64,000 nt of DNA from Parcubacteria group bacterium (GTDB lineage: Bacteria; Patescibacteriota; Minisyncoccia; UBA10092). The stretch is from positions 1,877 to 65,876 of the forward strand of contig JACPHB010000006.1 of the NCBI GenBank assembly GCA_016188835.1, written 5' to 3'. This document shows positions 20,356-47,500 of the stretch, piece by piece. Position numbers and translations under genes: made by a program. The notes beneath the pieces are model-generated. The model saw only the letters and a program-made list of their open reading frames with translations, was not told the DNA's origin and ran no database searches. Positions within the stretch are counted from its first letter, which is position 1; each line of letters begins with the position of its first letter.

Positions 20356-21146
20356 CCCTTCGCTATAACCAATCCATAAACTTCTTTTACTCCCGCTTGT
20401 TTTAAAACGCGAGCTGCTTCTTCCAAGGTGGCGTCGCTCGTTGCCACATCGTCAATCAAAATAACTTTTTTAATATTTCCAAACTGTCCCATTAACTGAC
20501 GATCGTCTGAAACTGGGATAATTTTGAGATTGAGGTTAAGGGTGAAGGCGCCGGAAATGTTTTCTTTTCTCTGTTGCCAATCCTTTATTTTCGCTTGAGG
20601 CGCGCTGAATTTTTGCCTTTTTAGTAAATTAATTACTGGGCAGCTTAAAGCGGGGGACAGCTCTTTAGCTAAAAGTTCGCTTTGATTAAAACCCCGGCTT
20701 AGTTTTCGGCGCCGCGAAAGGGGAATCGGCGCCAAAACAGTTGAAAATGTTGGAAACCGAGCTTCCAACATTTGGAGTTTCTCAATCAAGTTTTCTTTTT
20801 TGAGATATTTAATTAACAGTTCGGCCAGCGGTTTTTTTAATGATTCAACTGATTGGTATTTGAATTGATGAATCGCTTCTCTTAAAATCGGATCCTGGTA
20901 TTTTCCGGCAGCGAATAAACCGTTTAAAAATGTTTTTTTTCGGCATCTGCAGCAGATAATGTTGGAAACTCGGTTTCTAACATTTTTATTTCTTAAGCCG
21001 CAGACGTGGCACTCTACTCCGGAATTTAAAACGATATTATTTAAACAGGCCTCGCAGATAAACGAGGCCTGTTTTAAACTCAATTCTTTTTTACAGCCAA
21101 GGCAGAATCTCGGAAAAATCAAATCAAGTAAAAAGTTTTTTATCAT
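20352..21146 (-). CDS. comFC: ComF-family competence protein (zinc-ribbon plus phosphoribosyltransferase domain)
   Basis: N-terminal LLDLIFPRFCLGC..CEAC double zinc ribbon; PRTase motif VILIDDVATSDATL; start set at the MIKNF Met. Confidence 0.75.
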   Translation of the reverse strand: MIKNFLLDLIFPRFCLGCKKELSLKQASFICEACLNNIVLNSGVECHVCGLRNKNVRNRVSNIICCRCRKKTFLNGLFAAGKYQDPILREAIHQFKYQSVESLKKPLAELLIKYLKKENLIEKLQMLEARFPTFSTVLAPIPLSRRRKLSRGFNQSELLAKELSPALSCPVINLLKRQKFSAPQAKIKDWQQRKENISGAFTLNLNLKIIPVSDDRQLMGQFGNIKKVILIDDVATSDATLEEAARVLKQAGVKEVYGLVIAKG

Positions 21147-21160
21147 AGTGTATTGATATA

Positions 21161-21300
21161 ACATAGCCAAACATAATTTTCCTCGCGCTCTCGGTCGCCC
21201 AGCGGCTTCCTCGCTGTCCGATGAAAGCGTTTTATTCGCCTTTGGCGAAACCATGCTAAAACGCTTTCATAAGCTTCGGAAAATTACGTTTGGCTATATT
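21161..21300. repeat. structured repeat element copy A (cgctctcggtcgcccagcg..ctcgctgtccgATGAAAGCGTTTTA..TAAAACGCTTTCATaagcttcgg), also present at 35335-35520
   Basis: About 100 nt shared with the 35.3 kb copy; internal 14-bp inverted repeat. Confidence 0.6.
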
Positions 21301-21308
21301 TTATAGAG

Positions 21309-21425
21309 TTGACAATAATATTGCAAAATAAAATTATAGGTGGGGGCGAGCCGTTCGCCGAAGGCGAATGGGCCTGCCTGCCGGCAGGCAGGGCTAAGGA
21401 ATTTTATTTTGCAATATTATTGTCA
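21309..21425. terminator. long palindromic terminator-like element, copy 1: 26-bp perfect IR arms flanking a GC core containing ccgTTCGCCgaagGGCGAAtgg and ggCCTGCCTGCCGGCAGGCAGGgc
   Basis: Perfect inverted repeat ttgacaataatattgcaaaataaaatt / aattttattttgcaatattattgtca; lies 3' of clpC on the minus strand. Confidence 0.6.
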
Positions 21426-23807
21426 TATTAAATTTATTTTATTATTTTTCACGTCCACGATAATATTTTTCTCTTTTCCATTTTTGAGGACAAAATCCGC
21501 CAGAGAATTAATAATCAGTTTATTAATCAAATGTTTTATTTCTCTTGCGCCATTGCGGCTCGAAACGGCTTTGTCGGCGATAAAATTTATTACCGCGGGC
21601 CTTATTTTCAGGCGGCAGTTAATTGAATCATTAGTGAGAATATTTTTAAGTTCAAGCTCGGCAATATACCTCATTTGCTGGCGTCCCAAAGGGTTAAAAA
21701 CCACTATTTCATCAAGGCGCGATAAAAGTTCCGGTATAAAATGGCGGCGCAAGGACTTTAAGCTGGCATTTTTAATTTCATCAAATTTTTCCGCAAACGT
21801 TTTTGAGGCGGCTATAAAACCGAATTTTTTTGCCTCGCGGCTGAATTCTCTTGAGCCGAGGTTGGAGGTTAGAATAACAATGGCGTTTTTAAAATTAGCC
21901 CGTCGGCCGCGATTGTCGGTTAGAACTCCTTCCTCCAAAATTTGGAGCAAAATATTGGCGACTTGGGGGTGCGCTTTTTCTATTTCATCAAAAAGCACTA
22001 CCGAGTGGGGCTCCCTCCGTATTTTTTCGGTTAAATTGCCCGGCTCTTCATAGCCGATGTATCCCGGCGGCGCTCCTATTAATTTAGATATGCTGTGGGG
22101 TTCTGAAAATTCCGACATGTCAATTTTTATTAAAGGCGACCTCAAAATTTCCTTGCTCAAAACTTTTGCCAAATTTGTTTTGCCGACTCCGGTCGGCCCG
22201 ATAAATAAAAATGAACCGAGGGGCTTTTCTCTATTAGATAAGCCGGCGTAAGATCGAGCCAGGGCGGCGGAGAGCGTTTCAATCGCCTCATCCTGTCCGA
22301 TTATATTTTGTTTTAATTTTCGACTGATTTGCTCCGAGCCGAGCTGAGCGGTTGTCTTGCCTGCCTGCGCAGGCAGGCCAAAAACAATATTTGGAATTCC
22401 TGTCATTAAATTCAGTGTCTTAACAACATCTTCTATTTGGAGTTCTAAATCGGTTTTTTCCGTTTCGGTTTCCAAATTTTTCAAAGCGCAGGCCTCGTCG
22501 AGCAGGTCTATCGCTTTATCGGGCAAAAACCTTTCGGTTAAATATTGATTTGACAATTTAACGGCGGCGCTTATGCATTCATTCGAAATTTTTATTTTAT
22601 GGTGATTTTTTAAGGATGGCAAAAGGCCCAGTAGAATTTCTTCGGTTTGGCTTTCTGTCGGTTCGCTAATCATAACCTGCTGGAATCGTCTTTCCAGGCC
22701 GCCGTCTCTTTCCACATATTTTCGCCATTCGGCCAAAGTGGTGGCTCCGATTATTTGTACTTTATTAAGCGACAAGAGCGGCTTAATAATGTTTGAGGCG
22801 TCTAAAGAACCCTGGGCGGCGCCGGCGCCGATAACGGTATGGAATTCATCTATAAAAATTATGGCGTTTTTTTCTTCGGCTTCATATAGCACATCTTTTA
22901 ACCGCTCCTCGAACTCGCCGCGGAAAGTGGCGCCCGAAACGATAGCGCCCAAATCAATCTGAAAAATATTTTTATTCTTTAAATTTTTTGGAACTTCATC
23001 TTTGGCTATTTTTTGCGCCAAACCATATACTATAGCTGTCTTGCCAACACCCGGCTCGCCGATTAGTATTGGATTATTTTTTGTCCTCCGGCTCATTATC
23101 GCGGTCATTCTTTGCATTTCTTTTTTTCTGCCGATTATGGGATCAAATTTTCCGTCTTTAGCCATTGCTACGAGTTCGGCTCCGAAAATTTCAAGTGGCG
23201 CTTTCTCCGGTTCTTCTTCGGATATATTTTTATAAACATCGGCGATCAGTTTATCCAAAATATTCGGGCTATTTTTAGCGGCGGTCACGGGACTGTTAAT
23301 TTTCCCCGAAAGATAAAAAATTTCTTTTAAGTGATTTTCTACATCAACAGCCAGCCGGTGTTTTTGAGCTGAAATCCTGCTTTTAAATTCAGAAATTAAG
23401 CCCCAAAGCAAATGCTCGGTGCCGATGTGCCGGTAACCGTATTTCATTGCTTCTTCGAGTGCCGATGCCAAAACATCGCGGAAAGAAATAACGCTCGGCA
23501 GAGATAAATTTAAGTCATTAATATCCAACCCGTGGTTTTTCAAAATATTGTAAGCCAAACTGCCGCGAGCTTCAAAAACCGCTTTGATTAAATGGCTTCC
23601 GCCAATTTCGCCCCGTAGCTGCGGGGCGGAATTTTCTGCCGCTAAAATGACGCTTTTGGCGCGAGCCGTCAAACGATTCTCAAGAGATGGGGATAACTTC
23701 ATATTTATAATGAATATTTTATGATATAATAAAATTAAATTTAAATTTTGTCTATTTTTATTTATGGCATTGCCTTTTAACATATTCAGCATTGGAAAAG
23801 AACCCAA
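21423..23807 (-). CDS. clpC: ATP-dependent Clp protease ATP-binding subunit (ClpC/ClpB-like, two AAA+ modules, Clp_N repeats)
   Basis: Two Walker A motifs GEPGVGKT and GPTGVGKT; Clp_N N-domain; 794 aa. Confidence 0.85.
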   Translation of the reverse strand: MGSFPMLNMLKGNAINKNRQNLNLILLYHKIFIINMKLSPSLENRLTARAKSVILAAENSAPQLRGEIGGSHLIKAVFEARGSLAYNILKNHGLDINDLNLSLPSVISFRDVLASALEEAMKYGYRHIGTEHLLWGLISEFKSRISAQKHRLAVDVENHLKEIFYLSGKINSPVTAAKNSPNILDKLIADVYKNISEEEPEKAPLEIFGAELVAMAKDGKFDPIIGRKKEMQRMTAIMSRRTKNNPILIGEPGVGKTAIVYGLAQKIAKDEVPKNLKNKNIFQIDLGAIVSGATFRGEFEERLKDVLYEAEEKNAIIFIDEFHTVIGAGAAQGSLDASNIIKPLLSLNKVQIIGATTLAEWRKYVERDGGLERRFQQVMISEPTESQTEEILLGLLPSLKNHHKIKISNECISAAVKLSNQYLTERFLPDKAIDLLDEACALKNLETETEKTDLELQIEDVVKTLNLMTGIPNIVFGLPAQAGKTTAQLGSEQISRKLKQNIIGQDEAIETLSAALARSYAGLSNREKPLGSFLFIGPTGVGKTNLAKVLSKEILRSPLIKIDMSEFSEPHSISKLIGAPPGYIGYEEPGNLTEKIRREPHSVVLFDEIEKAHPQVANILLQILEEGVLTDNRGRRANFKNAIVILTSNLGSREFSREAKKFGFIAASKTFAEKFDEIKNASLKSLRRHFIPELLSRLDEIVVFNPLGRQQMRYIAELELKNILTNDSINCRLKIRPAVINFIADKAVSSRNGAREIKHLINKLIINSLADFVLKNGKEKNIIVDVKNNKINLI

Positions 23808-24861
23808 AAGCTATTTAGGCGTTGATATCGGCACTTTATCAATAAAAATAGTGGAGCTTTCAAGTGAAAACGGCCGGCCAAAACTTCAAAATTATGCCAT
23901 TTTATCGAACTATAATCTGATTGAAAATAAAACTCCAAAAGTATTCGGCGGAGAAGCGTCAATGATGTTAAGACGGATGTTAAAAGAATCGGGCATAGTT
24001 GCGAAAGAAATTAATATGTCGGCGCCGATTTTTTCAAGTTTTCTTACTATTATGGAGTTACCGCCGATGTCAGAATCGGAAGTCGCGAGTGCTATTCAGT
24101 TTGAGGCGAAAAAATACATTCCGGTTCCTCTTGATAGCGTTTTGATTGATTGGTCTTTAATAGGAACCAGCGCCGAAGGCCCCTCGACTACGTTCGGGGC
24201 AGGCCTGCCTGCCGGTCAGGCAGGCAAAATTTTAATTCTTTTAATCGCCATACCCAAGGATTTGGTAAATGAGTACCAATTTATCGCTAGAGAATCCGAT
24301 TTAAAACTTAATAATTTGGAACTAGAAACCACGTCGGCGACTCGCGCCCTTATCGGCAATGATCCGGTCCCGGCGGTGTTAATGGACATGGGTTCGCGAG
24401 ATACTACAATCAGCGTGGTTGATGGCGGATATTTGCGGATCAGCCATTCAATTGAGGCCTCCGGTGAGGATTTAACCAGAGCTTTAGCGAATAGTTTAAA
24501 TATCAGTTGGCGCCGAGCCGAAGAATTAAAAAAAGAACAAGGCCTTAAAGTTATGGATAATAACAATCAAATTAACGATGTTCTTGCGCCTCTTTTAGAC
24601 ACTATTGTTAACGCCGCGAAAAATATTATTGATCTTTATTTTAGTAAAACCAATAAGAAAGTTGAAAAGCTGATTATTTACGGCGGGGCGGCTAAAATGC
24701 CCGGATTTTCGCAGTATCTTGGCAAGGGCCTCGGCATCGACGCCCTTATCGGAAATCCTTTTAGTAAAATCATTTACGATGAAAAATTAAATCCAATCAT
24801 GGAAGAAATAGGTCACGAGTTTACAATAGCGACCGGACTCGCCCTAAAAGCTATACAATAA
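23764..24861 (+). CDS. pilM: type IV pilus assembly protein PilM (actin-like ATPase fold)
   Basis: SYLGVDIGTLSIKIVEL N-terminus and overall PilM architecture; first gene of pilMNO. Confidence 0.85.
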   Translation: MALPFNIFSIGKEPKSYLGVDIGTLSIKIVELSSENGRPKLQNYAILSNYNLIENKTPKVFGGEASMMLRRMLKESGIVAKEINMSAPIFSSFLTIMELPPMSESEVASAIQFEAKKYIPVPLDSVLIDWSLIGTSAEGPSTTFGAGLPAGQAGKILILLIAIPKDLVNEYQFIARESDLKLNNLELETTSATRALIGNDPVPAVLMDMGSRDTTISVVDGGYLRISHSIEASGEDLTRALANSLNISWRRAEELKKEQGLKVMDNNNQINDVLAPLLDTIVNAAKNIIDLYFSKTNKKVEKLIIYGGAAKMPGFSQYLGKGLGIDALIGNPFSKIIYDEKLNPIMEEIGHEFTIATGLALKAIQ

Positions 24862-24862
24862 T

Positions 24863-25393
24863 ATGGTGGAAATTACGCCTCAAAAACCAAAATTAATTTT
24901 ACCAAACTGGTCTTGGCCGCTGTGGCTTTCCCTTGCCCTTTTCTTTTTAAGCGTTTTTGCTTTTGTATTTTTAAAAGTTTATTTTGCCAGAATTCAGGAG
25001 GAAATTGTAAGCATTAATAATCAAATTAAAACCGAGGTCGGCAAAGTAAGCGTTGATGATGAAAACACGGTAATCCGCTTAAGCGATTCTTTAGCCGCTT
25101 TAGACGGCATCGTTTCAAACCACAGTTATTTTTCCAATGTTTTTAGTTTAATCGGCTCTCTCACTTATTCAAAGGCGGTTTTTACCAAATTTGACGCCGA
25201 TCGCGACAACGGCGTCATTAATCTTAGAGGATCGGCTCAGAATTACACGGCATTAGCCAAACAAATGGTTGCTCTCAGAGAAAATGACTACGTCAAGACA
25301 CTGGAAGTTAGAGGAATAAATTTTGGAAGTACGGGATTGGATTTTGATCTGATGCTTGGTATTGATGGTAAAATTTTCATAAAACAGCAATAA
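24863..25393 (+). CDS. pilN: PilN-like pilus assembly protein (single N-terminal TM)
   Basis: Position after pilM; TM plus coiled-coil periplasmic domain. Confidence 0.55.
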   Translation: MVEITPQKPKLILPNWSWPLWLSLALFFLSVFAFVFLKVYFARIQEEIVSINNQIKTEVGKVSVDDENTVIRLSDSLAALDGIVSNHSYFSNVFSLIGSLTYSKAVFTKFDADRDNGVINLRGSAQNYTALAKQMVALRENDYVKTLEVRGINFGSTGLDFDLMLGIDGKIFIKQQ

Positions 25394-25397
25394 ATTT

Positions 25398-25943
25398 ATG
25401 AACTTAAACCTTTTTAAATATATTATTTTGCCGTTTATTCTTTTTTTTGCCGCTCTTGCAATAGGTTTTTGGGTTTTATGGCCGCTTTACGGCGATATTC
25501 AAGCTGCCATGCTTTTAAAGGAACAAAATCAAGACAATTTAACGCAGCGGAAAAAACTCACGGAGAATCTGGAGCGTTTGATAAGCCAATATAATGAACG
25601 CGGTGGCGATATCGCGTCTTTAAATAAAGCTATTCCAAGCGGCCAAAACGTCCCGGAGCTTTTGGTAAATCTTGAAGCGATAGCTTCCGAAAGCGGGTTA
25701 ATTTTTAAAGGCGTGAATTTTAAACCTAAGGACTTGAAAGCTCCGGGCATTAAAACTTTAATAGCGGAAATAAGAGTCACGGGGTCTTATCCGGATTTTC
25801 TAAATTATCTTAAGGCGATGGAAAAAAGTTTGCGGATTTTTGATGTAACCAGTATTTCTTTTGCCGGAGTTTCACCCGGTCAAATTAGCGCGAGAACGGA
25901 TAACATAGATTTTAGTTTAACAGTAAATACTTATTATTATTAA
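25398..25943 (+). CDS. pilO: PilO-like pilus assembly protein
   Basis: Position and TM plus coiled-coil architecture. Confidence 0.55.
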   Translation: MNLNLFKYIILPFILFFAALAIGFWVLWPLYGDIQAAMLLKEQNQDNLTQRKKLTENLERLISQYNERGGDIASLNKAIPSGQNVPELLVNLEAIASESGLIFKGVNFKPKDLKAPGIKTLIAEIRVTGSYPDFLNYLKAMEKSLRIFDVTSISFAGVSPGQISARTDNIDFSLTVNTYYY

Positions 25944-25946
25944 ATT

Positions 25947-30306: not shown

Positions 30307-30855
30307 ATGTTTAAAAATAAAAAAGAAAAAGAGCTTGCCCTGAGTTCATCGAAGGGTTTCACTCTTTTGGAACTTTTAGTTGTTATAGGCATTATTGGGC
30401 TTTTAGCATCAATTCTGGTGCTTAATTTAACTAGCGCCAGAAGAAGAGCCAGGGACACAAAAAGAGTTGCCGATGTCAGAAATCTTCAGACCGCGACAGA
30501 GGATTATTTTGGCAAGAACGGCAAATATCCCGCTACAATTGCCAATTTGGTTTCCGATGGCCATATACCTGTATGGCCGCTTGATCCTTTGGCTCCGACG
30601 GGGACAAGCTGTTCCGGGAACAATGATAACTGTTATTACTATGCCATTTATCCGGCAACAAATCCCTATTCATACCACTTTGGAGCAAGTATGGAAGATA
30701 CGGGCAGTCAGCTTTTAAATCAGGACCGGGATTGCAATTCTATTACCGGCGCCGGCTGTCCTTACACCAGTCCTTACACCAACAACTTTAACGGCGGTGA
30801 TACAACAGGATGCGGCGGGGCGACAAACAGATACTGTTATGATATTGCTCAGTAG
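30307..30855 (+). CDS. pilA: type IV major pilin (prepilin with class III signal peptide KGFTLLELLVVIGIIGLLA)
   Basis: Prepilin cleavage/methylation motif G|FTLLE; Cys-rich C-terminal D-region. Confidence 0.8.
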   Translation: MFKNKKEKELALSSSKGFTLLELLVVIGIIGLLASILVLNLTSARRRARDTKRVADVRNLQTATEDYFGKNGKYPATIANLVSDGHIPVWPLDPLAPTGTSCSGNNDNCYYYAIYPATNPYSYHFGASMEDTGSQLLNQDRDCNSITGAGCPYTSPYTNNFNGGDTTGCGGATNRYCYDIAQ

Positions 30856-31669
30856 TTTTGTATTCGGGCTTGTTTTTGGAAGTTTTTTGAACGTTGTGAT
30901 TTATCGCCTTAAGAGCGGTCGGAATATAGTTTTCGACCGCTCTTTCTGTTCCGATTGTCTAACTCAATTAAAATGGCACGATTTAGTGCCAATTTTAAGT
31001 TTTATTTGGCTTCTGGGACGATGCCGTTATTGTAAGAAAAAAATTTCTTGGCAATACCCTGTTGTTGAAATTTTATCAGGGCTGATTTGGGTTGGTGTTT
31101 TTTATCAAAATTTCAACAATTTACAATTGTTTAATATTTTTTATCAAATTTTCACTTTTTCCATTTTTCTGGTTATTGCAGTTTATGATTTTAAATGGAA
31201 AATAATTCCTGATAAAATCGTCTATCCGGCGATTATTATTGTTTTTTTATATAATATTTTTAACTCTGTAAATGTTGGAAATGTAAATGTTGGAAACCGA
31301 GTTTCTAACATTTTTAAATATATAAATATTGAAATATTTATATATCCGCTTTTAACCGCCATTATCGTATTTTTGTTTTTTTTCGCAATCTATTATTTTT
31401 CTTCCGGCCGTGCCATGGGCCTCGGCGACGCTAAGCTAGCGTTTTTAATTGGTTTGTTTTTTAGTCCAGTATCCACAGTCGCGGCCTTAATTGCGGCTTT
31501 TGTTATTGGCGCCGTTTTTGGTATAATCTTATTAGCGCTTGGCGCAATCTTTCCTCGTTATAAAAAATGGGGGATGAAAAGCCAAATCGCTTTCGGCCCC
31601 TTTTTAGTTATCGGCGCTACTATTGCTTTTTTCTTTTCAAACTTTATTTATAAGTTTATAAATTTTTAA
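30839..31669 (+). CDS. pilD: prepilin peptidase PilD (A24 family) with N-terminal zinc-binding CxxC..CxxC
   Basis: FGSFLNVVIYRL..CSDC..CRYC; polytopic; start at MILLSSF overlaps the last 17 nt of the pilin gene. Confidence 0.85.
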   Translation: MILLSSFVFGLVFGSFLNVVIYRLKSGRNIVFDRSFCSDCLTQLKWHDLVPILSFIWLLGRCRYCKKKISWQYPVVEILSGLIWVGVFYQNFNNLQLFNIFYQIFTFSIFLVIAVYDFKWKIIPDKIVYPAIIIVFLYNIFNSVNVGNVNVGNRVSNIFKYINIEIFIYPLLTAIIVFLFFFAIYYFSSGRAMGLGDAKLAFLIGLFFSPVSTVAALIAAFVIGAVFGIILLALGAIFPRYKKWGMKSQIAFGPFLVIGATIAFFFSNFIYKFINF

Positions 31670-35334: not shown

Positions 35335-35520
35335 TCATTTTCCTCGCCCCGCATACAACTTGTTGTTGTGCGGGGCTCGCGCTCTCGGTCGCCCAGCGAC
35401 TCCCTCGCTGTCCGATGAAAGCGTTTTATTCAAAATGCAGGTATAATTCCGATCGGAATTAAACATGCATTTTGAAACCATGCTAAAACGCTTTCATAAG
35501 CTTCGGAAAATAATTTATTT
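35335..35520. repeat. structured repeat element copy B (homologous to 21161-21300) with two extra internal hairpin inserts; part of an 866-bp ORF-free island
   Basis: Shared blocks attttcctcgc / cgctctcggtcgcccagcg..ctcgctgtccgatgaaagcgttttattc / aaaccatgctaaaacgctttcataagcttcggaaaat. Confidence 0.6.
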
Positions 35521-36736: not shown

Positions 36737-37865
36737 ACAAAACGGTAATTTTTGGCTGGCGGTTTTTTCTCTTGTCGGCACCACTATCGGCGCCGGCATT
36801 TTTAGTTTGCCTTACGCTTTTTTTAAATCCGGCTTTCTTATTGGATTTTTAGAGTTTGTCGCTCTTGTTGCCGCGGTTTTATTGATCCAACTAATTATTG
36901 GCGAAATTGCTTTAAGAACCAAAGGGAAAAAACGCTTTATCGGATATGCCGAGCAGTATCTCGGCTACAGGTGGAAATTATTTGTAACCATTTCAACTCT
37001 TTTAGGAGGAATTGGCGTTATTTTGGTTTACATAATTTTAGCCGGCAATTTTCTTTCATTTATTATCGGTAAAAGCGCTGTCTCAAGTTCTTTAATTTTT
37101 TTTGCTGTTTGGTTTTTATTTATCTTGACTAAACCAAGAATATTCGGCAAAACCGAATTAATTTTTAGTTTTTCAATAATTTCAATTATTATATTGATTT
37201 CATCGTTTAATATCGGTTATATAAATTTTAATAATTTTAAAGATTTTAATGTCGATAATGTTCTTTTGCCTTACGGCGTTATTTTATTCGCCATTTCTGG
37301 TTATTATGTAATACCGGAAATGGAAGATATAATAGGAACTTCAAAACGAAAATTAAAAAAAGCCATAATTTTTGGCACTCTCATTCCCGCAGCTGTATAC
37401 TTGTTTTTTATTTTTATCGTTTTGGGTGTCTCTGGCAGTTTAACTTCGCCCGACGCCATTTCTGGTCTGGCCGGCGCTTCAAATTCAAAAATAACTCTTT
37501 TGCTCGGATCGTTTTTAGGGCTTTTAGCGGTTTCTGAAGCTTCGCTGAGTTATGGAATATATATCAAAGAAACGCTTTGGTACGACTTTAAAATTAACAA
37601 ATGGCTGGCATGGTTTCTAACCGGAGCGGCTCCTTTAGCGTTGTTTTTAATGGGGGCAAGAAATTTAATAATGATCATCGGTATTGTCGGCGCTTTATTT
37701 TTCGCTTTTCATGCCATTGTCGTTTTATTGATCCATAAAAAATCAAAATCGTCGGAAATTAAACCTGATTATGAGATAAAACTGCCGAATTTTGTTTATT
37801 ATTTAGTCGGGCTCGCGGCGATTTTTGGAGCTTTGCTTGAGGTTTGGTATAGTTTGTCCCTATAG
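36723..37865 (+). CDS. amino acid permease (aromatic amino acid / Trp-Tyr permease-like, about 11 TM)
   Basis: N-terminal FWLAVFSLVGTTIGAGIFSLPYAF signature; polytopic. Confidence 0.7.
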   Translation: MAENKQNGNFWLAVFSLVGTTIGAGIFSLPYAFFKSGFLIGFLEFVALVAAVLLIQLIIGEIALRTKGKKRFIGYAEQYLGYRWKLFVTISTLLGGIGVILVYIILAGNFLSFIIGKSAVSSSLIFFAVWFLFILTKPRIFGKTELIFSFSIISIIILISSFNIGYINFNNFKDFNVDNVLLPYGVILFAISGYYVIPEMEDIIGTSKRKLKKAIIFGTLIPAAVYLFFIFIVLGVSGSLTSPDAISGLAGASNSKITLLLGSFLGLLAVSEASLSYGIYIKETLWYDFKINKWLAWFLTGAAPLALFLMGARNLIMIIGIVGALFFAFHAIVVLLIHKKSKSSEIKPDYEIKLPNFVYYLVGLAAIFGALLEVWYSLSL

Positions 37866-37927
37866 CTCAACGGACAGAGCGCAACCCTCCGAAGGTTGAG
37901 ATCAAGGTTCAATTCCTTGTAGGGGCA
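37856..37927 (+). tRNA. tRNA-Arg (anticodon CCG)
   Basis: Cloverleaf folded by hand: acceptor gtcccta/taggggc (one G-U), D-arm gctc-aacggaca-gagc, anticodon arm caacc-cuCCGaa-gguug, T-arm caagg-TTCAATT-ccttg, discriminator A; CCA not encoded. Confidence 0.8.
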
Positions 37928-37949
37928 CAAATATGTTAAAATAAAATGT

Positions 37950-40662: not shown

Positions 40663-40755
40663 AACCAAGTAAAATTTTTAAAATTGTAGGCGGGGTCGTG
40701 CCGTTCGCCGAAGGCGAATGGGGCTACGACAATTTTAAAAATTTTACTTGGTTTT
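40661..40755. terminator. long palindromic terminator-like element, copy 2: perfect 27-bp IR arms (aaaaccaagtaaaatttttaaaattgt) around the core aggcggggtcgtgccgTTCGCCgaagGGCGAAtggggctacg; the right arm is the 3' end of rplT
   Basis: Perfect inverted repeat; shared core with 21336-21400 and 52598-52638; lies between the convergent MGMT and rplT genes. Confidence 0.65.
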
Positions 40756-41814: not shown

Positions 41815-42016
41815 ATAGAATATTTTGATTAAATTTAATATGCTGAATATTAATTGGTTTCTATAAAAAAGTCAAACATTTGAGAGATTTTTGTTGTGCC
41901 CCTCGACTATCGCTCAGGGCACTCGTCTCAAAACAAAAACCAGAAACAAGTTTCTGGTTTTTGTTTTCGCTGTGGTTTACCACGAGCGAACATTGCCAAA
42001 AGCAATGTGAGTCGAG

Positions 42017-42456
42017 TGGAAGTGGCGAGAGTTGAACTCGCATCTAGAATTTAGCAATTAAACATATCTACAGGCGATAGGCTATTTATTGTTTTAGAAA
42101 TCTTTCTTAAAACAGCCAAAATAAAAGATTCCCGTTTCTTCTTTGGTTCTATCCGAATCGAAGAATTTTCGGATTAAAGCCTAATGGTTGACACCGGTAT
42201 TGTCCTATTAGACATCAGACAGCCGATGCCCTCCTACGTTAAAACTTCGGAGGGTGAAACCCGCTTAAGCAAAAGCGAAAGCAGGAGTTAGATTTGTTTT
42301 GGCAGTTATTTTCTGCTTTGCCCTCCATAGCTTTACGCGAAGGAGGGCAATCTCGGGGATTGTCGCATCCCGCTGAGCGGGACGGAATTTCGAGGTTACG
42401 AGATATCCTCGGCCTGCATATTTAATTTTAAAATTCTATCGAAGCCCATCACCCCC
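42017..42456 (-). ncRNA. ssrA: tmRNA (ssrA): tRNA-like 5' GGGGGUGAUGGGCUUCGA.., 3' GCGAGUUCAACUCUCGC-CACUUCC-A; predicted tag reading frame at 42265-42303 (AKTNLTPAFAFA*)
   Basis: Minus-strand 5' end and T-arm/acceptor 3' end match tmRNA consensus (E. coli GGGGCUGAUUCUGGAUUCGAC.. / GCGGGUUCAACUCCCGCCAGCUCCACCA); AUAACU-GCC resume context like E. coli AUAGUC-GCA; directly adjacent to smpB. Confidence 0.75.
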
Positions 42457-42457
42457 A

Positions 42458-42901
42458 TTATTGTTTCAACTCGCGTTCTATTTTTCTTGCGGCTTCTCTT
42501 TTTGAAATTACCGCTCTTTTGTCATATTGCTTTTTTCCCCTGACCAAGCCAATTTCAATTTTGATTCTTCGGCCTTTATTATAAACCTTTAATGGCACCA
42601 AAGTCAACCCCTTTTGTTTTGTTTTACCGGAAATGTAATCAATTTCTTTTTTATTCAAAAGCAATTTTCTGGTGCGAGACGGATCATAGTCAGACGGCTG
42701 ATTTTTTGGCTGATAAGGAGCAATTGAGGCGCCAATCAGGTGAGGTTCGCCATTATGAAAATTAACATAAGATCCGGCTAGATTCATCCGTCCTCCCCTT
42801 ATTGATTTAACCTCGGCGCCGGACAACACCAAACCGGCCTCGAATTTTTCAAGGATTTCATAATCAAAATAAGCTTTTCTGTTTTCAGCAAGTGCGCTCA
42901 T
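42458..42901 (-). CDS. smpB: SsrA-binding protein SmpB
   Basis: YFDYEILEKFEAGLVLSGAEVKS, GASIAPY motifs. Confidence 0.9.
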   Translation of the reverse strand: MSALAENRKAYFDYEILEKFEAGLVLSGAEVKSIRGGRMNLAGSYVNFHNGEPHLIGASIAPYQPKNQPSDYDPSRTRKLLLNKKEIDYISGKTKQKGLTLVPLKVYNKGRRIKIEIGLVRGKKQYDKRAVISKREAARKIERELKQ

Positions 42902-42957
42902 AAAGTAAATATATCAGATACTTCTAATTTTTCCCAAATTTAGTTAATATTATATTA

Positions 42958-44580
42958 ATGATAGAACTAATTAAAACGCTATTAGCCGACATAACGAGAA
43001 AAATAGCTCCCAATTTCACTGGCGAAATTGTTGTTAAAATAACGGAAAATAAAAATCAAGGCGATTACACTTCAAACGTTGCTTTTGCTTTGTCAAAAAT
43101 TCTAAAAAAATCATCGCAAATAGCGGCAGAGGAATTGGTAAAAAAGCTCAAGTTTTCTACAGCGGGCAAGAAAGAATTTTCTAAAATTGAAGCTCAAAAC
43201 GGTTTTATAAACTTTTTTCTTTCAGAAAATTGTTTAAAGCATCAACTTGAGGAAATTTTAAGGTTAAAAAATAAATACGGAAATTCCAATATTGGCAAAA
43301 ATTGTAAAACTCAAATCGAGTTCATTTCCGCTAATCCAACTGGGCCTTTAACTATCGGTAATGGCCGGGGTGGATTTTACGGCGATGTTCTGGCGAATGT
43401 TTTGAAAACACAAGGGTATAAGATTACCAGAGAATTTTATATAAACGACAGGGGCGGCCAAATTTTGGCTCTTGGCAGGTCAATTAAATTGGCGCGGGGT
43501 GAGAAGTTAGATTTAGAAAAAACCGAATCAGAAAATTTATATAGGGGCGATTATATAAATGCCTTGGCGGAACAGATAGATAAAAATTTAAGCGTTGAAG
43601 AAACGGGGCAAAGAGCAGTTGATTTAATTTTAAGTACACACATAAAACCGGTTATAAAAAAATTGGGGATAAAATACAATGTTTGGTTTTCCGAGAAATC
43701 TTTATACAAGAACGGAATCTATCAAAGAGTAATGGGTGATTTAATGCAAAAAGATTTAATTTATGAAGCGGACGGAGCGACTTGGATGAAAACATCAGAA
43801 TTGGGCGACAGCGAAGACAGGGTCTTGATAAAAAGTAATGGCGACGAAACATATTTTATGTCCGACATTCTTTATCATTTGAATAAATTTGAAATAAGGA
43901 AGTTTGATAAGGTTATTGATGTTTGGGGGGCCGATCATCATGGCGATATGCTACGGTTATCTGGTGTTTTAAAGGTTTTAGGTGTTGATTTGGGACGACT
44001 TATAATATTGCTTAATCAATTTGTGCGTCTTGTTTTGGGCGGAAAAGAATTTAAGTTTTCAAAGCGCGCCGGAACTTTTATAACCCTTGAAGAATTAGTT
44101 GATGAAGTGGGGCTTGATGCCACCAGATTTTTCTTTTTGATGTACTCGATCAATACCCATATGGATTTTGATCTGGCGCTTGCAAAGGAACGATCGCAGA
44201 AAAATCCGGTTTATTACGTTCAATACGCTCATGCGAGAATCACGAGTATTCTCGTTAAAATCAAAAATCAAAAATCAAAAATCAAAATTACAAATCAAAA
44301 TTTAAAATTATTAAATACCGAACCGGAATTAAATTTAATGAGAAAATTAATAGAGTTGCCCGAAATTTTAATTGATATCTCAAAAAATTACGAAGTCCAC
44401 CGACTGCCGCGATACGCGTTGGAGTTGGCACGGGAATTCCACAATTTTTACGAAAAAGAACGGGTAATTACCGAAGATAAAAACTTAACAATAGCTCGTT
44501 TGTCATTAGTCATGGCGACAAAAATTGTTTTGGCAAATACGTTAAACTTGATGGGTATTAAATCTCCTGATAAGATGTAA
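42958..44580 (+). CDS. argS: arginyl-tRNA synthetase
   Basis: ISANPTGPLTIGNGRGG (HIGH-region analogue); C-terminal DALR anticodon-binding domain (YVQYAHAR). Confidence 0.9.
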   Translation: MIELIKTLLADITRKIAPNFTGEIVVKITENKNQGDYTSNVAFALSKILKKSSQIAAEELVKKLKFSTAGKKEFSKIEAQNGFINFFLSENCLKHQLEEILRLKNKYGNSNIGKNCKTQIEFISANPTGPLTIGNGRGGFYGDVLANVLKTQGYKITREFYINDRGGQILALGRSIKLARGEKLDLEKTESENLYRGDYINALAEQIDKNLSVEETGQRAVDLILSTHIKPVIKKLGIKYNVWFSEKSLYKNGIYQRVMGDLMQKDLIYEADGATWMKTSELGDSEDRVLIKSNGDETYFMSDILYHLNKFEIRKFDKVIDVWGADHHGDMLRLSGVLKVLGVDLGRLIILLNQFVRLVLGGKEFKFSKRAGTFITLEELVDEVGLDATRFFFLMYSINTHMDFDLALAKERSQKNPVYYVQYAHARITSILVKIKNQKSKIKITNQNLKLLNTEPELNLMRKLIELPEILIDISKNYEVHRLPRYALELAREFHNFYEKERVITEDKNLTIARLSLVMATKIVLANTLNLMGIKSPDKM

Positions 44581-44584
44581 ACCT

Positions 44585-47500
44585 ATGGAATTATTTTCTC
44601 CGAAAACTGAAGAAAAGATTTTGGATTTTTGGCAAAAAAATCAAATTTTTGAGAAATTAAGACAAAAAATCAGAGGCCAAAAACACTGGTCTTTTTTGGA
44701 TGGGCCGATTACCGCTAACAATCCCATGGGCGTTCATCACGCGTGGGGCCGGACTTATAAAGACCTATTTCAGAGATATAAAGCGATGAGAGGGTTTGAC
44801 CAGAGATTTCAAAACGGTTTTGACGCTCAAGGTCTTTGGGTGGAAGTAGAGGTGGAAAAAGAACTGGGTTTTAAATCCAAAAAAGACATTGAGAAGTATG
44901 GAATTGCCAAATTTGTTGAAAAATGCAAAGAGCGCGTAAGAAAATATTCCGAAATCCAAACGAATCAATCGATCAGATTAGGCCAATGGATGGACTGGAA
45001 AAACAGTTATTACACGATGTCTAATGAAAATAATATCGCCATCTGGCACTTTCTAAAAAAATGCCGGGAAAAAGGATTGCTTTATAAAGGACACGATGTT
45101 GTCCCCTGGTGTTGGCGTTGCGGTACGGCTATTTCCCAACATGAAATATTAACCGAAGATTACAAAGAAGTTACCCACGACTCGGTTTATATAGAATATC
45201 CCATTGTTGGAAACCGAGCTTCAAACATTTTCAATAAAAAAAATACCTATCTTTTAGTTTGGACCACAACTCCTTGGACTCTTCTCGGCAATGCGGCGAT
45301 AGCTATTGACCCAGAAAAGATTTATGCGGAAGCGACGGGGGAAATTAAAGGCAATTCGTATTATCTTATAAAAACTGCGGCGGAAAAATTAAACCTCAAA
45401 ATTATCAGAACGTTTAAGGGAAAGGAGTTAGTCGGTTTAATTTATAAATCGCCGTTTGATAATTTGCCGACTGTTAAAAAAACTTTATCAGGGTTTGTCC
45501 ATAAAGTTGTTGCTACTGATTCTCGCATTTTACCGGTTAGCGAGGAAGAAGGAACAGGGTTAGTTCATATAGCGCCCGGCCAAGGTGTTGAAGATTATCG
45601 ATTGGCCAAAAAATTAAAAATTCCTGCGGTTAATTTAATTGACGATGCGGCAGTTTACTTAAAAGACCTTGGACAATTCAGCGGCAAAAATGCGAAAGAA
45701 CATCCGGAAATAATTATCAATTATTTAAAAACTGCGGATTTTCTTTTTGACGCTCCAAAATATACCCACCGCTATCCCATCTGTTGGAGGTGTAAAACCG
45801 AGTTGGTATGGAAAATTGCCGACGAGTGGTATATATCAATGGATAAATTGAGGAAGCCATTAATGGAAATAGCCAAAAAAATAAAATGGATTCCTTCTTT
45901 TGGTTTAGGAAGAGAGATCGATTGGCTGAAAAATATGTCCGACTGGCTGATTTCAAAGAAAAGATATTGGGGGCTGGCGCTGCCTATTTTTGAGTGCCGA
46001 TGCGGGAACTTTGAAGTTGTCGGTTCACTTGCCGATTTTGACAAATATTCACTAAGAAAACCAAATCATTACATATTATTGCGCCACGGCGAAGCGGAAA
46101 ACAACCGTCTTAAAATCACCTCTTCTTATCCAGAGAAGGAAAAATACCCCTTAACAATAAAAGGTATTGGAGAAATTGAAAAACTTATTCCATGGTTTAA
46201 GAAAAAAAGAGTTGATTTGGTATTTTCTTCCGATATTTTACGGGCGCGGGAAACCGCTCAAATTATTGCCGGCGCTTTGGGGAAAACCGTAACTTATGAA
46301 AAGCGGCTTCGCGAGCATAACTTTGGCGATTACAACGGGCGTACTCATAAAGAATGGCATTCGCTTTTTGGCAGTAATAAAACGAATCAGTATGCAACTA
46401 AACCGCTGGGCGGCGAAAATCTGAAAGACGTTCAAAAAAGAATGACCAGTTTTCTCAAGGAATTGGATAAAAAATACGAAGGCAAAACAATTTTAATTGT
46501 AAGCCATGCCAATCCAATAGTGGCGGCCGCCAGCGCCTATAATGGTTACAAAAATGAAGAAACATTTGAAAAATTTAATATTGACGAAACTACCGGTTCT
46601 GTCGTTGAAATATATGGCCATAACTGGCCATATAATAATGACGGCGATTTGGATTTGCACCGGCCCTACGTTGATGAAATCAGAATCAAATGTTCTAAAT
46701 GTGGCAAAATGGTCTCTCGTGTTTTAGATGTCGGCAATCCTTGGCTAGATGCCGGAATTGTGCCTTATTCAACCATAGGATACTTTGAGGAGCACGTAAA
46801 ACTGCCTGACGGCAGTAACGTGCCAGGTAAAAAATTTTGGCGCAAGTGGTTTCCCGCCGAGCTTGTTTGTGAGTCATTTCCCGGCCAGTTTAAAAATTGG
46901 TTTTATTCTTTGATTGTAATGAGCGCGGTTTTAGAAAAAGTTCCGCCAATGAAAACGGTTTTTGGTTATGCTTCGGTTCGAGACGACAAAGGTGAAGAGA
47001 TGCACAAATCAAAGGGGAATGCCATTTGGTTTGACGAAGCGGCGGAAAAAATAGGAGTTGACGTGATGCGCTGGATGTATGTTAAACAGAATCCGGCCGA
47101 TAATTTAAAATTCGGATATGCGCCGGCTAAAGAGCACGAAAGAAAACTAATGAATCTTTGGAACAGTTTCACTTTTTTTAAAACTTATGCTTCGCATAAA
47201 CCAAGCTCCAAGCTCTCCTTCGACAAGCTCAGGATCCCGAGCGGCGTCGAGGGACAAGCTCCAAGCTCTTTATTAGACCAGTGGATTTTGTCGCGTCTTA
47301 ATAATCTTATAGAAAAAGTCACCAAAGATTTGGATAAATATGATTCTGCTTCTGCCAGTAGAGCGATTGAAGAGTTTTTTATAGAAGATCTTTCTTTGTG
47401 GCATATCCGCCGTTCGCGGGTAAGGTTTCAAATGCCGAAATCAGAAAAAGAAAAACAAGAAGCTGTCGAAATGCTTTATCTGGTATTATTTAGTTTATCA

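What the first reader, a model, noticed from the sequence alone, without database searches (positions are those of the whole stretch)
20745..45229. Family A: 27-30 bp near-palindrome AATGTTGGAAACCGAG(C/T)TTC(T/C)AACATT inserted in-frame in comF (x2), pilD and ileS
Copies sit at 20745-20774 and 20958-20984 (both inside comF), 31286-31313 (inside pilD, with a partial tandem copy at 31271-31285) and 45204-45229 (inside ileS). Each is a hairpin (aatgttggaaac / gtttctaacatt). Each is translated through as part of the host protein in a different frame and orientation: MLEARFPTF, NVRNRVSNI, NVGNVNVGNRVSNIF, VGNRASNIF. Short palindromic elements that proliferate in-frame into protein-coding genes are classically known from Rickettsia (RPEs). 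Finding the same behaviour here in essential genes is notable.
Basis: seen in the sequence. Interest (0 to 1): 0.7.

Follow-up and report, generated by a model that had tools for sequence, protein, structure and literature searches.

The report
Translated hairpin repeats inside bacterial genes
A 27-base DNA hairpin that in related genomes flanks a small single-strand DNA transposase gene has been copied into the coding sequence of many essential genes of these tiny groundwater bacteria (Patescibacteria/CPR), where it appears to be read through as nine extra amino acids in protein loops.

Summary
Four copies of a 27-nt palindrome lie in the window (none expected by chance), inside comF (two copies), the prepilin peptidase gene pilD and ileS, all in frame.

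For comF and ileS they are insertions, not ancestral sequence. Orthologues 75-85% identical lack them, and more than 100 IleRS orthologues show the empty site. pilD is unresolved.

The same palindrome occurs at about 130 distinct sites in Patescibacteria MAGs and groundwater metagenomes. About 63% lie in long open reading frames, including rpoC, polA, smc and ligA. They are read in four of the six frames; the Cys-Trp frames are essentially never used.

New here: in 16 of the loci fetched by the palindrome alone, it abuts a roughly 225-aa Y1 HUH transposase gene, on both sides wherever both ends were in the fetched DNA. That gene matches Pfam Y1_Tnp, and its predicted fold best matches the E. 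coli REP-associated transposase (RAYT) bound to a REP hairpin. Across lineages the hairpin arms change with compensatory substitutions while the loop ACCGAG stays constant.

Best reading: a REP/RAYT-type system of Patescibacteria whose hairpins are mostly intragenic and translated, so they behave like Rickettsia RPEs. No transposase gene lies in the window, and its copies look old. Mobilisation and translation are inferred, not shown. I rate it a new variant of a known kind.

The parts
20746..20772 (+). Family-A copy 1, AATGTTGGAAACCGAGCTTCCAACATT. It lies inside comF (a - strand gene) and is read from the opposite strand as MLEARFPTF.
   Evidence: ssDNA hairpin -9.1/-9.4 kcal/mol. Absent at this site in orthologues P0019, P0021, P0025 and P0036, and net +27 nt against L029. 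In the AF2 model of ComF it is a coil between helix 121-125 and strand 136-140, with lowered pLDDT.
20958..20984 (-). Family-A copy 2; on the - strand it reads AATGTTAGAAACCGAGTTTCCAACATT. It lies inside the zinc-ribbon part of comF and is read as NVRNRVSNI.
   Evidence: Present in P0001, P0003 and P0009; absent in P0005, P0012, P0014 and many others. Filled site AAAAATGTTAGAAACCGAGTTTCCAACATTATCTGC against empty site AAAAATG|GAACTTGC, net +21 nt. The insert falls in the two ComF blocks of lowest pLDDT among residues 1-200, about 58.
31271..31285 (+). Partial tandem duplication of the 5' arm (AATGTTGGAAATGTA), read as NVGNV.
   Evidence: Arm duplications of this kind are common in other copies.
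31286..31312 (+). Family-A copy 3, AATGTTGGAAACCGAGTTTCTAACATT. It lies inside the prepilin peptidase gene and is read as NVGNRVSNI.
   Evidence: Hairpin -8.3 kcal/mol, z -4.7. An orthologous copy is present in L001. It lies in a loop of hypervariable length, and no close empty orthologue was found.
45203..45229 (+). Family-A copy 4, ATTGTTGGAAACCGAGCTTCAAACATT, eroded by 2 mismatches. It lies inside ileS at the start of the CP1/editing insertion and is read as IVGNRASNI.
   Evidence: It no longer folds. Empty site CCCATAGAAGGCAAAAAAAAT in L155 and L156 against the filled site here, net +24 nt. More than 100 orthologues are empty. The element is inverted in place in L010/P0262.
45230..45236 (+). 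Probable remnant of a tandem duplication of the 3' arm. The window has TTTTCAAT where the orthologue L116 has TTTCCAAC. This is an inference.
   Evidence: DNA alignment of ileS orthologues. P0242 carries SNISNISN, that is, extra 9-nt arm units.
20352..21146 (-). Host gene comF (ComF family protein, 264 aa as called by NCBI).
   Evidence: P0001 is 100% identical.
30839..31669 (+). Host gene for the prepilin peptidase (A24_N_bact plus Peptidase_A24 domains).
44585..48163 (+). Host gene ileS (1192 aa, including an inserted His_Phos_1 domain).
   Evidence: P0241 is 100% identical.

Best explanation
Family A is a REP-like miniature element. It is a 27-29 nt DNA hairpin with a 10-12 bp stem, the constant loop region A-C-CGA-G, and A-rich and T-rich edges.

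It belongs to a REP/RAYT-type system (a "REPtron") of Patescibacteria. In genomes that carry the system, a roughly 225-aa Y1 HUH (IS200-like, RAYT-like) transposase gene is bracketed by these hairpins.

The inferred mechanism is that this enzyme recognises the hairpin in single-stranded DNA, cuts next to it and pastes copies elsewhere.

The unit is 27 nt (nine codons) and has no stop codon in any of its six frames, and these genomes have almost no intergenic space. Many insertions therefore land in genes. Those that survive sit in permissive surface loops and are read in one of the four tolerable frames (NVGNRASNI, NVGSSVSNI, MLETELPTF, MLEARFPTF).

After insertion the copies invert in place, gain or lose 9-nt arm units, and decay, always in multiples of three.

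The four copies in the window are such survivors. They are old, being shared with related species, and the ileS copy is already eroded.

Shown: insertion polymorphism, dispersal, frame bias, the association with the transposase gene, and hairpin covariation. Inferred: that the Y1 protein moves the hairpins, and that the inserts are translated.
For: 1. Insertion rather than ancestry. There are empty and filled orthologous sites in ComF and IleRS.

2. A dispersed family restricted to one lineage.
- 27 loci in 185,579 species genomes, all Patescibacteria-type MAGs.
- None in viral contigs.
- 175 copies in all, 132 unique by their flanks.

3. Mostly intragenic.
- 81 of 132 copies lie in open spans of at least 150 aa. 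By the slightly different de-duplication this is 63%, against 84% for random positions in the same loci (p 4.5e-9).
- Hosts include RpoC, PolA, SMC and the NAD-dependent DNA ligase.

4. A signature of translation. Among about 47 distinct coding sites the frames used are 21, 13, 11 and 4. The two Cys-Trp frames score 1 and 0, and the single case lies at the very start of its open span. Net insert lengths are +15, +21, +24, +27 and +33 nt.

5. Transposase link.
- tblastn finds a Y1 gene in 24 of 155 sequences, and 16 of those had been fetched only by the palindrome and have it right next to the gene (4 more were fetched through the protein itself, and 4 carry a second, unlinked Y1 family).
- In L022, L144, L134, L085, L048, L150, L093, L040 and L054, and in L032 (fetched through the protein), exact or near-exact family-A copies sit within about 5-80 nt of both start and stop.
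- Further homologues fetched through the protein (L031, L033, L034) are also flanked by hairpins with lineage-specific arms and the same ACCGAG loop. L034 has one on its 3' side, plus a degenerate copy upstream of the homology start.

6. The protein.
- Pfam Y1_Tnp, 40.3 bits against a cut-off of 23, with HUH (MPNHFH) and YIHRNP motifs.
- NCBIfam REP_Tyr_transpos, E 9e-11.
- AF2 model with pLDDT 83.5, whose best PDB match is 4ER8, the E. coli RAYT bound to a REP hairpin (E 4e-5, TM 0.62 normalised to the target).

7. Hairpin under selection. 9 of 12 stem pairs show compensatory changes; 87.8% of cells are paired against 70.6% in shuffles and 24-45% in the slid controls.

8. A second, distant Y1 family is bracketed by a different palindrome. 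This is the one-transposase, one-repeat pattern of REPtrons.

9. The inserts map to low-confidence coil in the ComF model and to a segment of variable length at the start of the IleRS editing domain.
Against: - No Y1 gene is in the window, nor in the fetched loci of its nearest relatives CAZBVM and CAZKLP. Activity in this genome is therefore unproven, and its copies may be orphan relics.
- No target-site duplication, cleavage site or target motif could be defined. Element edges are fuzzy and net insert lengths vary.
- There is no significant orientation bias relative to GC skew (58:42, p 0.13). A bias might have been expected for transposition on the lagging-strand template.
- The hairpin lacks the GTAG/CGTC tag of classical REPs.
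- The Y1 protein scores below NCBIfam's RAYT cut-off (41.8 against 80 bits) and has no sequence-level PDB hit to 4ER8.
- Translation is inferred from frame statistics, not observed.
- The collection scans needed a near-consensus 23-mer, so diverged copies are missed, and the loci are not phylogenetically independent.
- Part of the covariation set was picked with a hairpin filter.
Confidence: 0.72

Rival explanations
1. The hairpins are the solo ends (MITE/PATE-like derivatives) of a still autonomous IS200-type insertion sequence made of hairpin, tnpA and hairpin, rather than REPs served by a domesticated, vertically inherited RAYT.
For: In the family-A lineage both flanking hairpins have the same orientation as the gene, like the left and right ends of IS200/IS605. 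L011 has a solo hairpin exactly where L024, L032 and L016 have hairpin-gene-hairpin, which could be an excision footprint. One MAG (JAHJZO01) holds at least two or three paralogues.
Against: The paralogues are only 60-70% identical, not recent copies. The gene sits in conserved synteny (322-aa gene, 248-aa gene, Y1 gene) in several diverged genomes. Family members are 60-70% identical across named candidate phyla, like a housekeeping gene. In L031 and L033 some flanking hairpins are inverted, as in REPtrons. The solo hairpin in L011 is equally explained by recombination between direct repeats.
Confidence: 0.2
2. The palindrome spreads without any transposase, by template switching, gene conversion or illegitimate recombination between hairpin-forming sequences. 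Its presence next to the Y1 gene is only another intergenic landing place.
For: Arm duplications, in-place inversions and fuzzy edges are typical of hairpin-driven replication slippage and quasipalindrome correction. Some empty sites resemble the element's ends (ATAGAAGG against ATTGTTGG in ileS; AAAAATGGAAC in comF). No target-site duplication or target motif was found.
Against: 16 of the roughly 150 loci fetched only by the palindrome have it right next to the Y1 gene, on both sides wherever both ends were in the fetched DNA, although this gene makes up well under 0.1% of a genome. Arms co-vary with the Y1 lineage while the loop stays fixed. A second Y1 family has its own palindrome. These are the hallmarks of a cognate enzyme and substrate.
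Confidence: 0.1
3. The copies are kept because the DNA or RNA hairpin itself is useful at each place: a DNA uptake signal for the competence machinery, a protein-binding or regulatory site, or a transcript-stabilising or terminating hairpin.
For: The copies are over-represented outside long ORFs (37% against 16% for random positions). Several sit just after stop codons or before promoter-like TTGACT boxes. The hairpin structure is conserved. The window encodes competence and type IV pilus genes.
Against: Density is about 1 per 16 kb in the window, far below uptake sequences. Intragenic copies show no preference for the sense or antisense strand (roughly 40:39 copies and 25:25 site-frame counts), which argues against an RNA-level role. 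Copies decay (the ileS copy no longer folds). The same loops receive unrelated palindromes in other lineages. No Rfam family matches.
Confidence: 0.08
4. The peptide segments are ancestral or convergent protein sequence, or the 27 nt are removed before or after translation (intron-like or intein-like), so they do not add residues to the proteins.
For: Translation was not observed directly. The pilD site has no close empty orthologue.
Against: The empty sites are the majority state in ComF and IleRS. The same DNA is read in four frames and on both strands in unrelated proteins. Avoidance of the Cys-Trp frames, and decay only in multiples of 3 nt, are expected only if the sequence is translated. 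Nine residues cannot form an intein.
Confidence: 0.03

Closest known systems
REP / RAYT systems (REPtrons; TnpA-REP of E. coli, REPINs of Pseudomonas)
   Same: A short dispersed palindrome, a cognate Y1 HUH transposase gene bracketed by copies of it, one palindrome family per transposase family, a hairpin kept by compensatory changes, and a predicted fold closest to PDB 4ER8.
   Different: No GTAG/CGTC tag. The stem is AT-rich and the loop ACCGAG is conserved. Copies are mostly single hairpins, not REPIN doublets. About 63% are intragenic and apparently translated, whereas classical REPs are extragenic by definition. The transposase is about 225 aa, carries a REP-derived segment inside its own gene, and scores below NCBIfam's RAYT threshold. 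The host phylum is Patescibacteria, which the RAYT surveys I read do not mention (PMC5581495, PMC6006769).
Intragenic REPs of Opitutus terrae, Xanthomonas and others, and the CGTC-type RPE-4/RPE-6 of Rickettsia conorii (Di Nocera et al. 2013, PMC3733652)
   Same: REP hairpins lying entirely within ORFs, in frame. They are often in DNA replication and repair genes and aminoacyl-tRNA synthetases, and sometimes at the same site in orthologues.
   Different: In those genomes intragenic copies are described as the exception, since most REPs are intergenic. Here they are the majority. Sequence, tag and host lineage also differ.
Rickettsia palindromic elements (RPE-1 and relatives; Ogata et al. 2000, from my own knowledge)
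   Same: Palindromic repeats inserted in frame into essential protein genes, adding a peptide segment compatible with function.
   Different: RPE-1 is about 100-150 bp (30-50 aa) and has no sequence similarity to family A. No transposase has been tied to it. Family A is 27 nt and has a candidate transposase.
IS200/IS605 insertion sequences and their palindrome-associated derivatives
   Same: Y1 HUH transposase. Subterminal hairpins on the same strand at both ends of the gene in the family-A lineage. No target-site duplication is seen.
   Different: No multi-copy identical units and no tnpB. The position is syntenic and the gene is conserved. The dispersed unit is a single 27-nt hairpin, not a left end plus right end pair.

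Membership tests
REP/RAYT (REPtron) | A Y1 HUH transposase with the HUH motif and a catalytic Tyr | tested here: met
   Pfam PF01797, 40.3 bits (gathering cut-off 23). MPNHFH and YIHRNP are conserved in 32-38 aligned homologues.
REP/RAYT (REPtron) | Protein closer to TnpA-REP than to IS200/IS605 TnpA | tested here: inconclusive
   The fold says yes: best PDB hit 4ER8_A, E 4.1e-5, against 5e-3 or worse for IS608 and ISDra2. NCBIfam REP_Tyr_transpos gives E 9e-11 but 41.8 bits, below the cut-off of 80. The sequence profile hits only ISDra2, weakly.
REP/RAYT (REPtron) | Transposase gene flanked by copies of the dispersed palindrome | tested here: met
   Both flanks in L022, L144, L134, L085, L032, L048, L150, L093, L040, L054, L031 and L033. 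One flank where the locus is cut.
REP/RAYT (REPtron) | Palindrome carries a 5' GTAG (or CGTC) tetranucleotide | tested here: not met
   The consensus is (A)AATGTTGGAAACCGAGCTTCCAACATT(T). The flanks are A- and T-rich and no tag is conserved.
REP/RAYT (REPtron) | Repeats are extragenic | tested here: not met
   81 of 132 unique copies lie in open spans of at least 150 aa; 63% by the de-duplication.
REP/RAYT (REPtron) | Repeats organised as inverted doublets (REPINs) | tested here: not met
   Copies are single hairpins. Only arm duplications occur, plus an occasional inverted neighbour in L033.
REP/RAYT (REPtron) | Transposase single-copy and vertically inherited | tested here: inconclusive
   Synteny is conserved in several genomes, but there are 2-3 diverged paralogues in MAG JAHJZO01. 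No complete genomes were examined.
REP/RAYT (REPtron) | Enzyme binds and cleaves the single-stranded hairpin | not testable with these tools
   Needs biochemistry.
Rickettsia palindromic elements (RPE) | In-frame insertion into protein-coding genes with presence/absence among orthologues | tested here: met
   ComF and IleRS.
Rickettsia palindromic elements (RPE) | Element of about 100-150 bp related in sequence to RPE families and found in Rickettsia | tested here: not met
   The element is 27-29 nt and all 27 genome hits are Patescibacteria MAGs. RPE sizes are from my own knowledge and PMC3733652.
IS200/IS605 | Multiple near-identical copies of the whole unit (ends plus tnpA) per genome | tested here: inconclusive
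   Paralogues in one MAG are 60-70% identical. Complete genomes are needed.
DNA uptake sequences (DUS/USS) | About one copy per kb, arising by point mutation rather than insertion | tested here: not met
   4 copies in 64 kb. The copies are length polymorphisms.

The most novel reading that the evidence does not exclude
Patescibacteria carry several REP/RAYT systems, each a Y1 transposase with its own 25-40 nt palindrome. In these gene-dense genomes they act mainly on coding DNA. They repeatedly seed 5-11-residue loop insertions at the same permissive spots of core proteins (RpoC, PolA, SMC, LigA, IleRS, ComF), so they would be a major and so far undescribed source of protein-length variation in this radiation. 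The transposase gene itself keeps an internal copy of its hairpin, possibly as a cis-regulatory site. This would also give a concrete enzymatic model for how RPE-type in-frame palindromes arise.
Probability: 0.4. Interest if true: 0.75.

Novelty: new variant of a known kind. Interest (0 to 1): 0.62.

Why it matters
REPs are defined as extragenic, and the mechanism behind Rickettsia-type in-frame palindromes has never been tied to an enzyme. Here the two phenomena meet. A hairpin with a cognate RAYT-like transposase sits mostly inside genes, including the most conserved genes of the cell, and shows a clear signature of translation.

If confirmed, several things follow:
- It extends REP/RAYT biology to the Candidate Phyla Radiation.
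- It explains many of the odd short insertions seen in CPR proteins, which affect alignments, phylogenies and structure prediction.
- It offers a minimal 27-nt substrate and a small enzyme for studying single-strand transposition.
- It gives a natural catalogue of permissive loop sites in essential proteins.

For annotation, these peptides (NVGNRASNI, NVGSSVSNI, MLETELPTF, MLEARFPTF) should be recognised as element-derived.

Tried and rejected
- **Chance or low complexity.** Rejected: 0 of 100 shuffles matched.
- **Known RNA families or tRNA-like elements.** Rfam at gathering threshold finds only the tmRNA and one tRNA in the window.
- **Phage origin.** No copy in IMG/VR viral contigs.
- **Transposase in the window.** tblastn with the Y1 protein finds nothing. 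My attempts to extend the window's contig through the look-up of encoding contigs failed because the proteins are not on record.
- **Replication-strand bias.** I tested element orientation against locus GC skew; it was not significant.
- **Target motif or target-site duplication.** The logo of 130 unique sites shows only A-rich and T-rich edges. Empty-versus-filled alignments give different net lengths and no duplication.
- **PilD empty site.** A search of 1.84 billion representatives gave no close orthologue without the insert, and the region is hypervariable.
- **Sequence-level link to solved RAYT structures.** phmmer and a profile search did not reach 4ER8. Only the fold comparison did.
- **The second palindrome families.** TAACGACGTCCGACGTCGTTA and GGTGTCGGACACC are absent from the window.
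- **Literature.** I found no paper on REP/RAYT or in-frame palindromes in CPR, Patescibacteria or Parcubacteria in the searchable library. The library is incomplete.


Full report
**1. The observation**

The 27-mer AATGTTGGAAACCGAG(C/T)TTC(T/C)AACATT occurs four times in the window: 20746-20772, 20958-20984 (loop on the minus strand), 31286-31312 and 45203-45229. None of 100 dinucleotide-preserving shuffles gave a match (sequences). A one-mismatch copy of the 5' arm precedes the third copy at 31271-31282. Other half-site matches are at chance level.

All copies lie in long ORFs. Pfam identifies these as a ComF-like protein (DZR_2 plus PRTase), a prepilin peptidase (A24) and IleRS.

As single-stranded DNA, three copies fold into 10-13 bp hairpins (-6 to -9.4 kcal/mol, z -3.8 to -6.7). 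The ileS copy has two arm mutations and no longer folds better than shuffles.

Relative to the element, three copies are read in the same frame (NV[GR]NR[AV]SNI) and one from the other strand (MLEARFPTF). "Each in a different frame and orientation" is therefore an overstatement.

**2. Insertion or ancestral sequence?**

*ComF.* The window protein is 100% identical to an NCBI "ComF family protein [Parcubacteria group bacterium]" on a 67,969-nt contig. I aligned 48 homologues.
- Proteins 75-85% identical either have or lack each insert: NKNVRNRVSNIIC against NKNG--------TC, and LIEKLQMLEARFPTFSTV against LIEKLA---------NSI.
- At the DNA level, the filled site AAAAATGTTAGAAACCGAGTTTCCAACATTATCTGC faces the empty site AAAAATG|GAACTTGC (net +21 nt). 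The other site is net +27 nt.

*IleRS.* Among 120 homologues, more than 100 from across Patescibacteria have the short YPI(E/D)G(K/R)KN.YLLVWTTTPWT.
- Nine close relatives carry family-A peptides of net +5, +7, +8 or +11 residues.
- One (P0262/L010) has the element inverted in place (IVRNSVSNI).
- The DNA alignment shows CCCATAGAAGGCAAAAAAAAT (empty) against CCCATTGTTGGAAACCGAGCTTCAAACATTTTCAATAAAAAAAAT (window, +24 nt).
- Against solved IleRS structures, the site is a segment of variable length at the entry to the CP1/editing domain.

*ComF model.* In an AF2 model of ComF (pLDDT 81), both inserts are coil with lowered confidence.

*PilD.* For the prepilin peptidase I found only an orthologue that also has the insert (L001) and distant homologues in which the loop is hypervariable. 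Insertion there is likely but not shown.

**3. How widespread, and where?**

An exact scan for TGTTRGAAACCGAGYTTCNAACA gave these results:
- 27 loci in one genome per species for 185,579 species, all Patescibacteria-type MAGs (Azambacteria, Nomurabacteria, "Patescibacteria group", and records labelled Saccharibacteria that encode close ComF and IleRS orthologues).
- None in viral contigs.

Together with the window this makes 175 copies, 132 unique by their 15-nt flanks.
- 81 lie in open spans of at least 150 aa, 12 in spans of 80-149 aa and 39 in shorter spans.
- Random positions in the same loci fall in spans of at least 150 aa 84% of the time, against 63% for the element (p 4.5e-9). Copies are thus about 2.3-fold enriched outside genes, yet most are inside them.

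Hosts identified by Pfam include RNA polymerase beta' (four loci), DNA polymerase I (three), SMC (three), the NAD-dependent DNA ligase, and Wzy_C/TPR membrane proteins.

**4. Evidence that the inserts are translated (indirect)**

The element has no stop codon in any of its six frames. After clustering orthologous contexts there are about 47 distinct coding sites. Frame usage is:
- NVGSSVSNI: 21
- NVGNRASNI: 13
- MLETELPTF: 11
- MLEARFPTF: 4
- CWKPSFQH: 1, at the very start of an open span and probably upstream of the real start codon
- CWKLGFQH: 0

One third would be expected in the Cys-Trp phase if frames did not matter.

Sense and antisense orientations are equally frequent, which argues against a role in the mRNA. 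All length variants seen in IleRS and ComF are multiples of three. They include SNISNISN, which is made of extra 9-nt arm units.

**5. The associated transposase (new, and outside the window)**

Next to an intergenic copy in L016 I found an ORF with PNHFHL and YIHRNP motifs.

Its full-length paralogue in L022 (226 aa) has three hairpins:
- a family-A hairpin 10 nt before its ATG;
- another overlapping its stop codon, in the same orientation;
- a third, in frame, inside the gene.

The protein matches Pfam Y1_Tnp (40.3 bits, cut-off 23) and, below threshold, NCBIfam REP_Tyr_transpos (E 9e-11).

tblastn over everything fetched finds the gene in 24 of 155 sequences. Of those 24:
- 4 were fetched through the protein itself;
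- 4 carry a second, unlinked Y1 family (see below);
- 16 were fetched only by the palindrome and have it right next to the gene.

In L134, L085, L048, L150, L093, L040, L144, L022, L054 and L032 the hairpins sit on both sides of the gene. This gene makes up well under 0.1% of a genome, so the association cannot be chance.

The family has more than 1,600 members of about 225 aa in the protein database, and the best 120 listed are 60-97% identical to the query. Those that carry names are named for many candidate phyla of Patescibacteria.

Four further members were fetched through the protein, not the palindrome. Three are bracketed on both sides and L034 on its 3' side, with a degenerate copy upstream. 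The arms differ by lineage (TGTTGGAAAC, TGTTAAAAAC, TGTGCAAAAC, TGTTAGACAC) and the loop ACCGAG is constant.

On 15 variants, 9 of 12 stem pairs show compensatory changes. 87.8% of cells are paired, against 70.6% in shuffles and 24-45% when the partner is slid. The caveat is that some variants had been picked with a hairpin filter.

An AF2 model of the protein (pLDDT 83.5) has as its best PDB match 4ER8, the E. coli REP-associated tyrosine transposase bound to a REP hairpin (E 4.1e-5, TM 0.62 on the target). This is ahead of the IS608 and ISDra2 transposases. Sequence searches alone reach only ISDra2, weakly.

A second Y1 family (29% identity) in the same kind of organisms is bracketed by a different palindrome, TATAACGACGTCCGACGTCGTTATA.

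**6. Mechanism**

The anatomy is that of a REPtron: a Y1 HUH enzyme, a cognate hairpin at its gene, and dispersed copies.

By analogy with TnpA-REP and IS200/IS605 (established for E. coli RAYT, IS608 and ISDra2; PMC8266576, PMC6006769), the enzyme would recognise the hairpin in single-stranded DNA and cut and rejoin at its foot. This step is inferred.

What is unusual is the outcome. The unit is nine codons long and free of stops, and the genomes are about 84% long-ORF by my measure. Insertions therefore often land in genes, and a filter on peptide tolerability leaves copies in loops, in four frames.

Later events are visible:
- in-place inversion (IleRS in the window against L010);
- arm duplications (pilD in the window; SNISNISN; CGAGCTTCTAACATTaCGAGCTTCTAACATT beside L032);
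- erosion (ileS in the window).

The window's own copies are shared with related species. No Y1 gene is in the window or in the fetched loci of its nearest relatives. They may be relics of past activity, or the gene may lie elsewhere in the genome.

L011 shows that the gene can be absent with a single hairpin left at the syntenic site.

**7. Unresolved points**

- I could define no target motif or duplication. Conservation fades gradually beyond AA...TTT.
- There is no significant orientation bias against GC skew.
- The same loops are hit repeatedly. ComF after NLIEKL carries family A in two phases, or a different palindrome (TTGGTGCCCGACACC...GGTGTCGGACACCAA in L030). The IleRS site carries IGPPDGEAS or ENLAYRQAG in other lineages. 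Targeting and mere permissiveness cannot be separated here.
- Every member of the Y1 family keeps a REP-derived segment (FVKNRAFNI) in its own gene. The DNA hairpin is intact in some lineages and eroded in others.

**8. Comparison with what is known**

Classical REPs carry a GTAG or CGTC tag and are GC-rich and extragenic. Di Nocera et al. (PMC3733652) already reported REPs lying within ORFs in several species, including replication and repair genes and tRNA synthetases. They also showed that Rickettsia RPE-4 and RPE-6 are CGTC-type REPs.

In-frame REPs as such are therefore not new. The following are, as far as the searchable literature shows:
- the host radiation;
- the tag-less, AT-rich hairpin with a fixed ACCGAG loop;
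- the predominance of intragenic, apparently translated copies in core genes;
- the distinct roughly 225-aa RAYT-like family with an internal hairpin.

**Verdict**

- It is a new variant of a known kind (REP/RAYT) that behaves like RPEs.
- Interest is about 0.6.

Noticed in passing
window 46073-46627 (IleRS residues 497-681): A complete histidine-phosphatase domain (Pfam His_Phos_1, E 1.3e-39, RHGE motif) is inserted in the middle of the IleRS catalytic domain. About 23 protein clusters (P0241-P0262, P0298) share it. The next-closest Azambacteria IleRS (P0263-P0267, about 960 aa) lack it.
   Followed up: partly
window 20475-20530: A third, unrelated palindromic insert in comF (centre GACGATCGTC; peptide IPVSDDRQLMGQFGN). 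It is shared with P0007, P0084 and P0101. Most orthologues have other sequences in this C-terminal variable region.
   Followed up: partly
window 21322-21394, 40672-40744, 52582-52654: A 73-nt intergenic palindromic repeat family (AAATTTTTAAAATTGTAGGCGGGGTCGTGCCGTTCGCCGAAGGCGAATGGGGCTACGACAATTTTAAAAATTT). Two copies are 96% identical and one is diverged (family D2).
   Followed up: no
window 21182-21284 and 35376-35511: A near-identical (96-100%) duplicated stretch of about 100-135 nt. One copy lies just upstream of the comF start, the other in the 35.2-36.0 kb intergenic region, which also holds a 24-nt perfect-type palindrome at 35429-35476.
   Followed up: no
L051 8550-9349, L052 6741-7540, L072 2983-3782; L113 445-1056: A second Y1 transposase family, 29-30% identical to the family-A-associated one, is bracketed by its own palindrome: TATAACGACGTCCGACGTCGTTATA, or TAACGACTTGCGATGTCGTTA in L113. 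It is absent from the window.
   Followed up: partly
L022 about 6256-6282; L031, L033 about 10169; L034 about 10313: Every member of the family-A-associated Y1 transposase family has an in-frame hairpin-derived segment inside its own gene (FVKNRAFNI, or YVRHSVFNI when the loop is flipped). The DNA palindrome is intact in some lineages and eroded in others.
   Followed up: partly
L011 1800-1860 compared with L024, L032 and L016: One genome has a solo family-A hairpin between the 248-aa gene and the LmbE-like gene, exactly where other genomes have hairpin, Y1 gene, hairpin. The transposase gene has been lost or excised, leaving one hairpin.
   Followed up: yes
L030 about 2240-2290; ComF homologues P0007, P0012, P0014, P0039; IleRS homologues P0252, P0254: Other palindrome-derived inserts occupy the same loops as family A in other lineages. 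Examples are TTGGTGCCCGACACCGAACGCACCCGGTGTCGGACACCAA (peptide CPTP..GVGH), CLPAGRHGRHC, IGPPDGEAS and ENLAYRQAG. Several mini-palindrome families therefore act on these proteins.
   Followed up: partly
window 1315-1512; 8127-8417 and 9087-9377; 10810-10843 and 30326-30359: A 99-nt tandem repeat (94% identity). A 291-nt internal duplication (75%) inside ORF 8043-9998. A shared motif GCTTGCCCTGAG..TCGAAG inside two unrelated ORFs (families D3, D1 and D13).
   Followed up: no
window 42014-42456 (-) and 37856-37928 (+): A tmRNA (tag peptide AKTNLTPAFAFA) and tRNA-Arg(CCG) are the only RNA genes detected in the window.
   Followed up: yes
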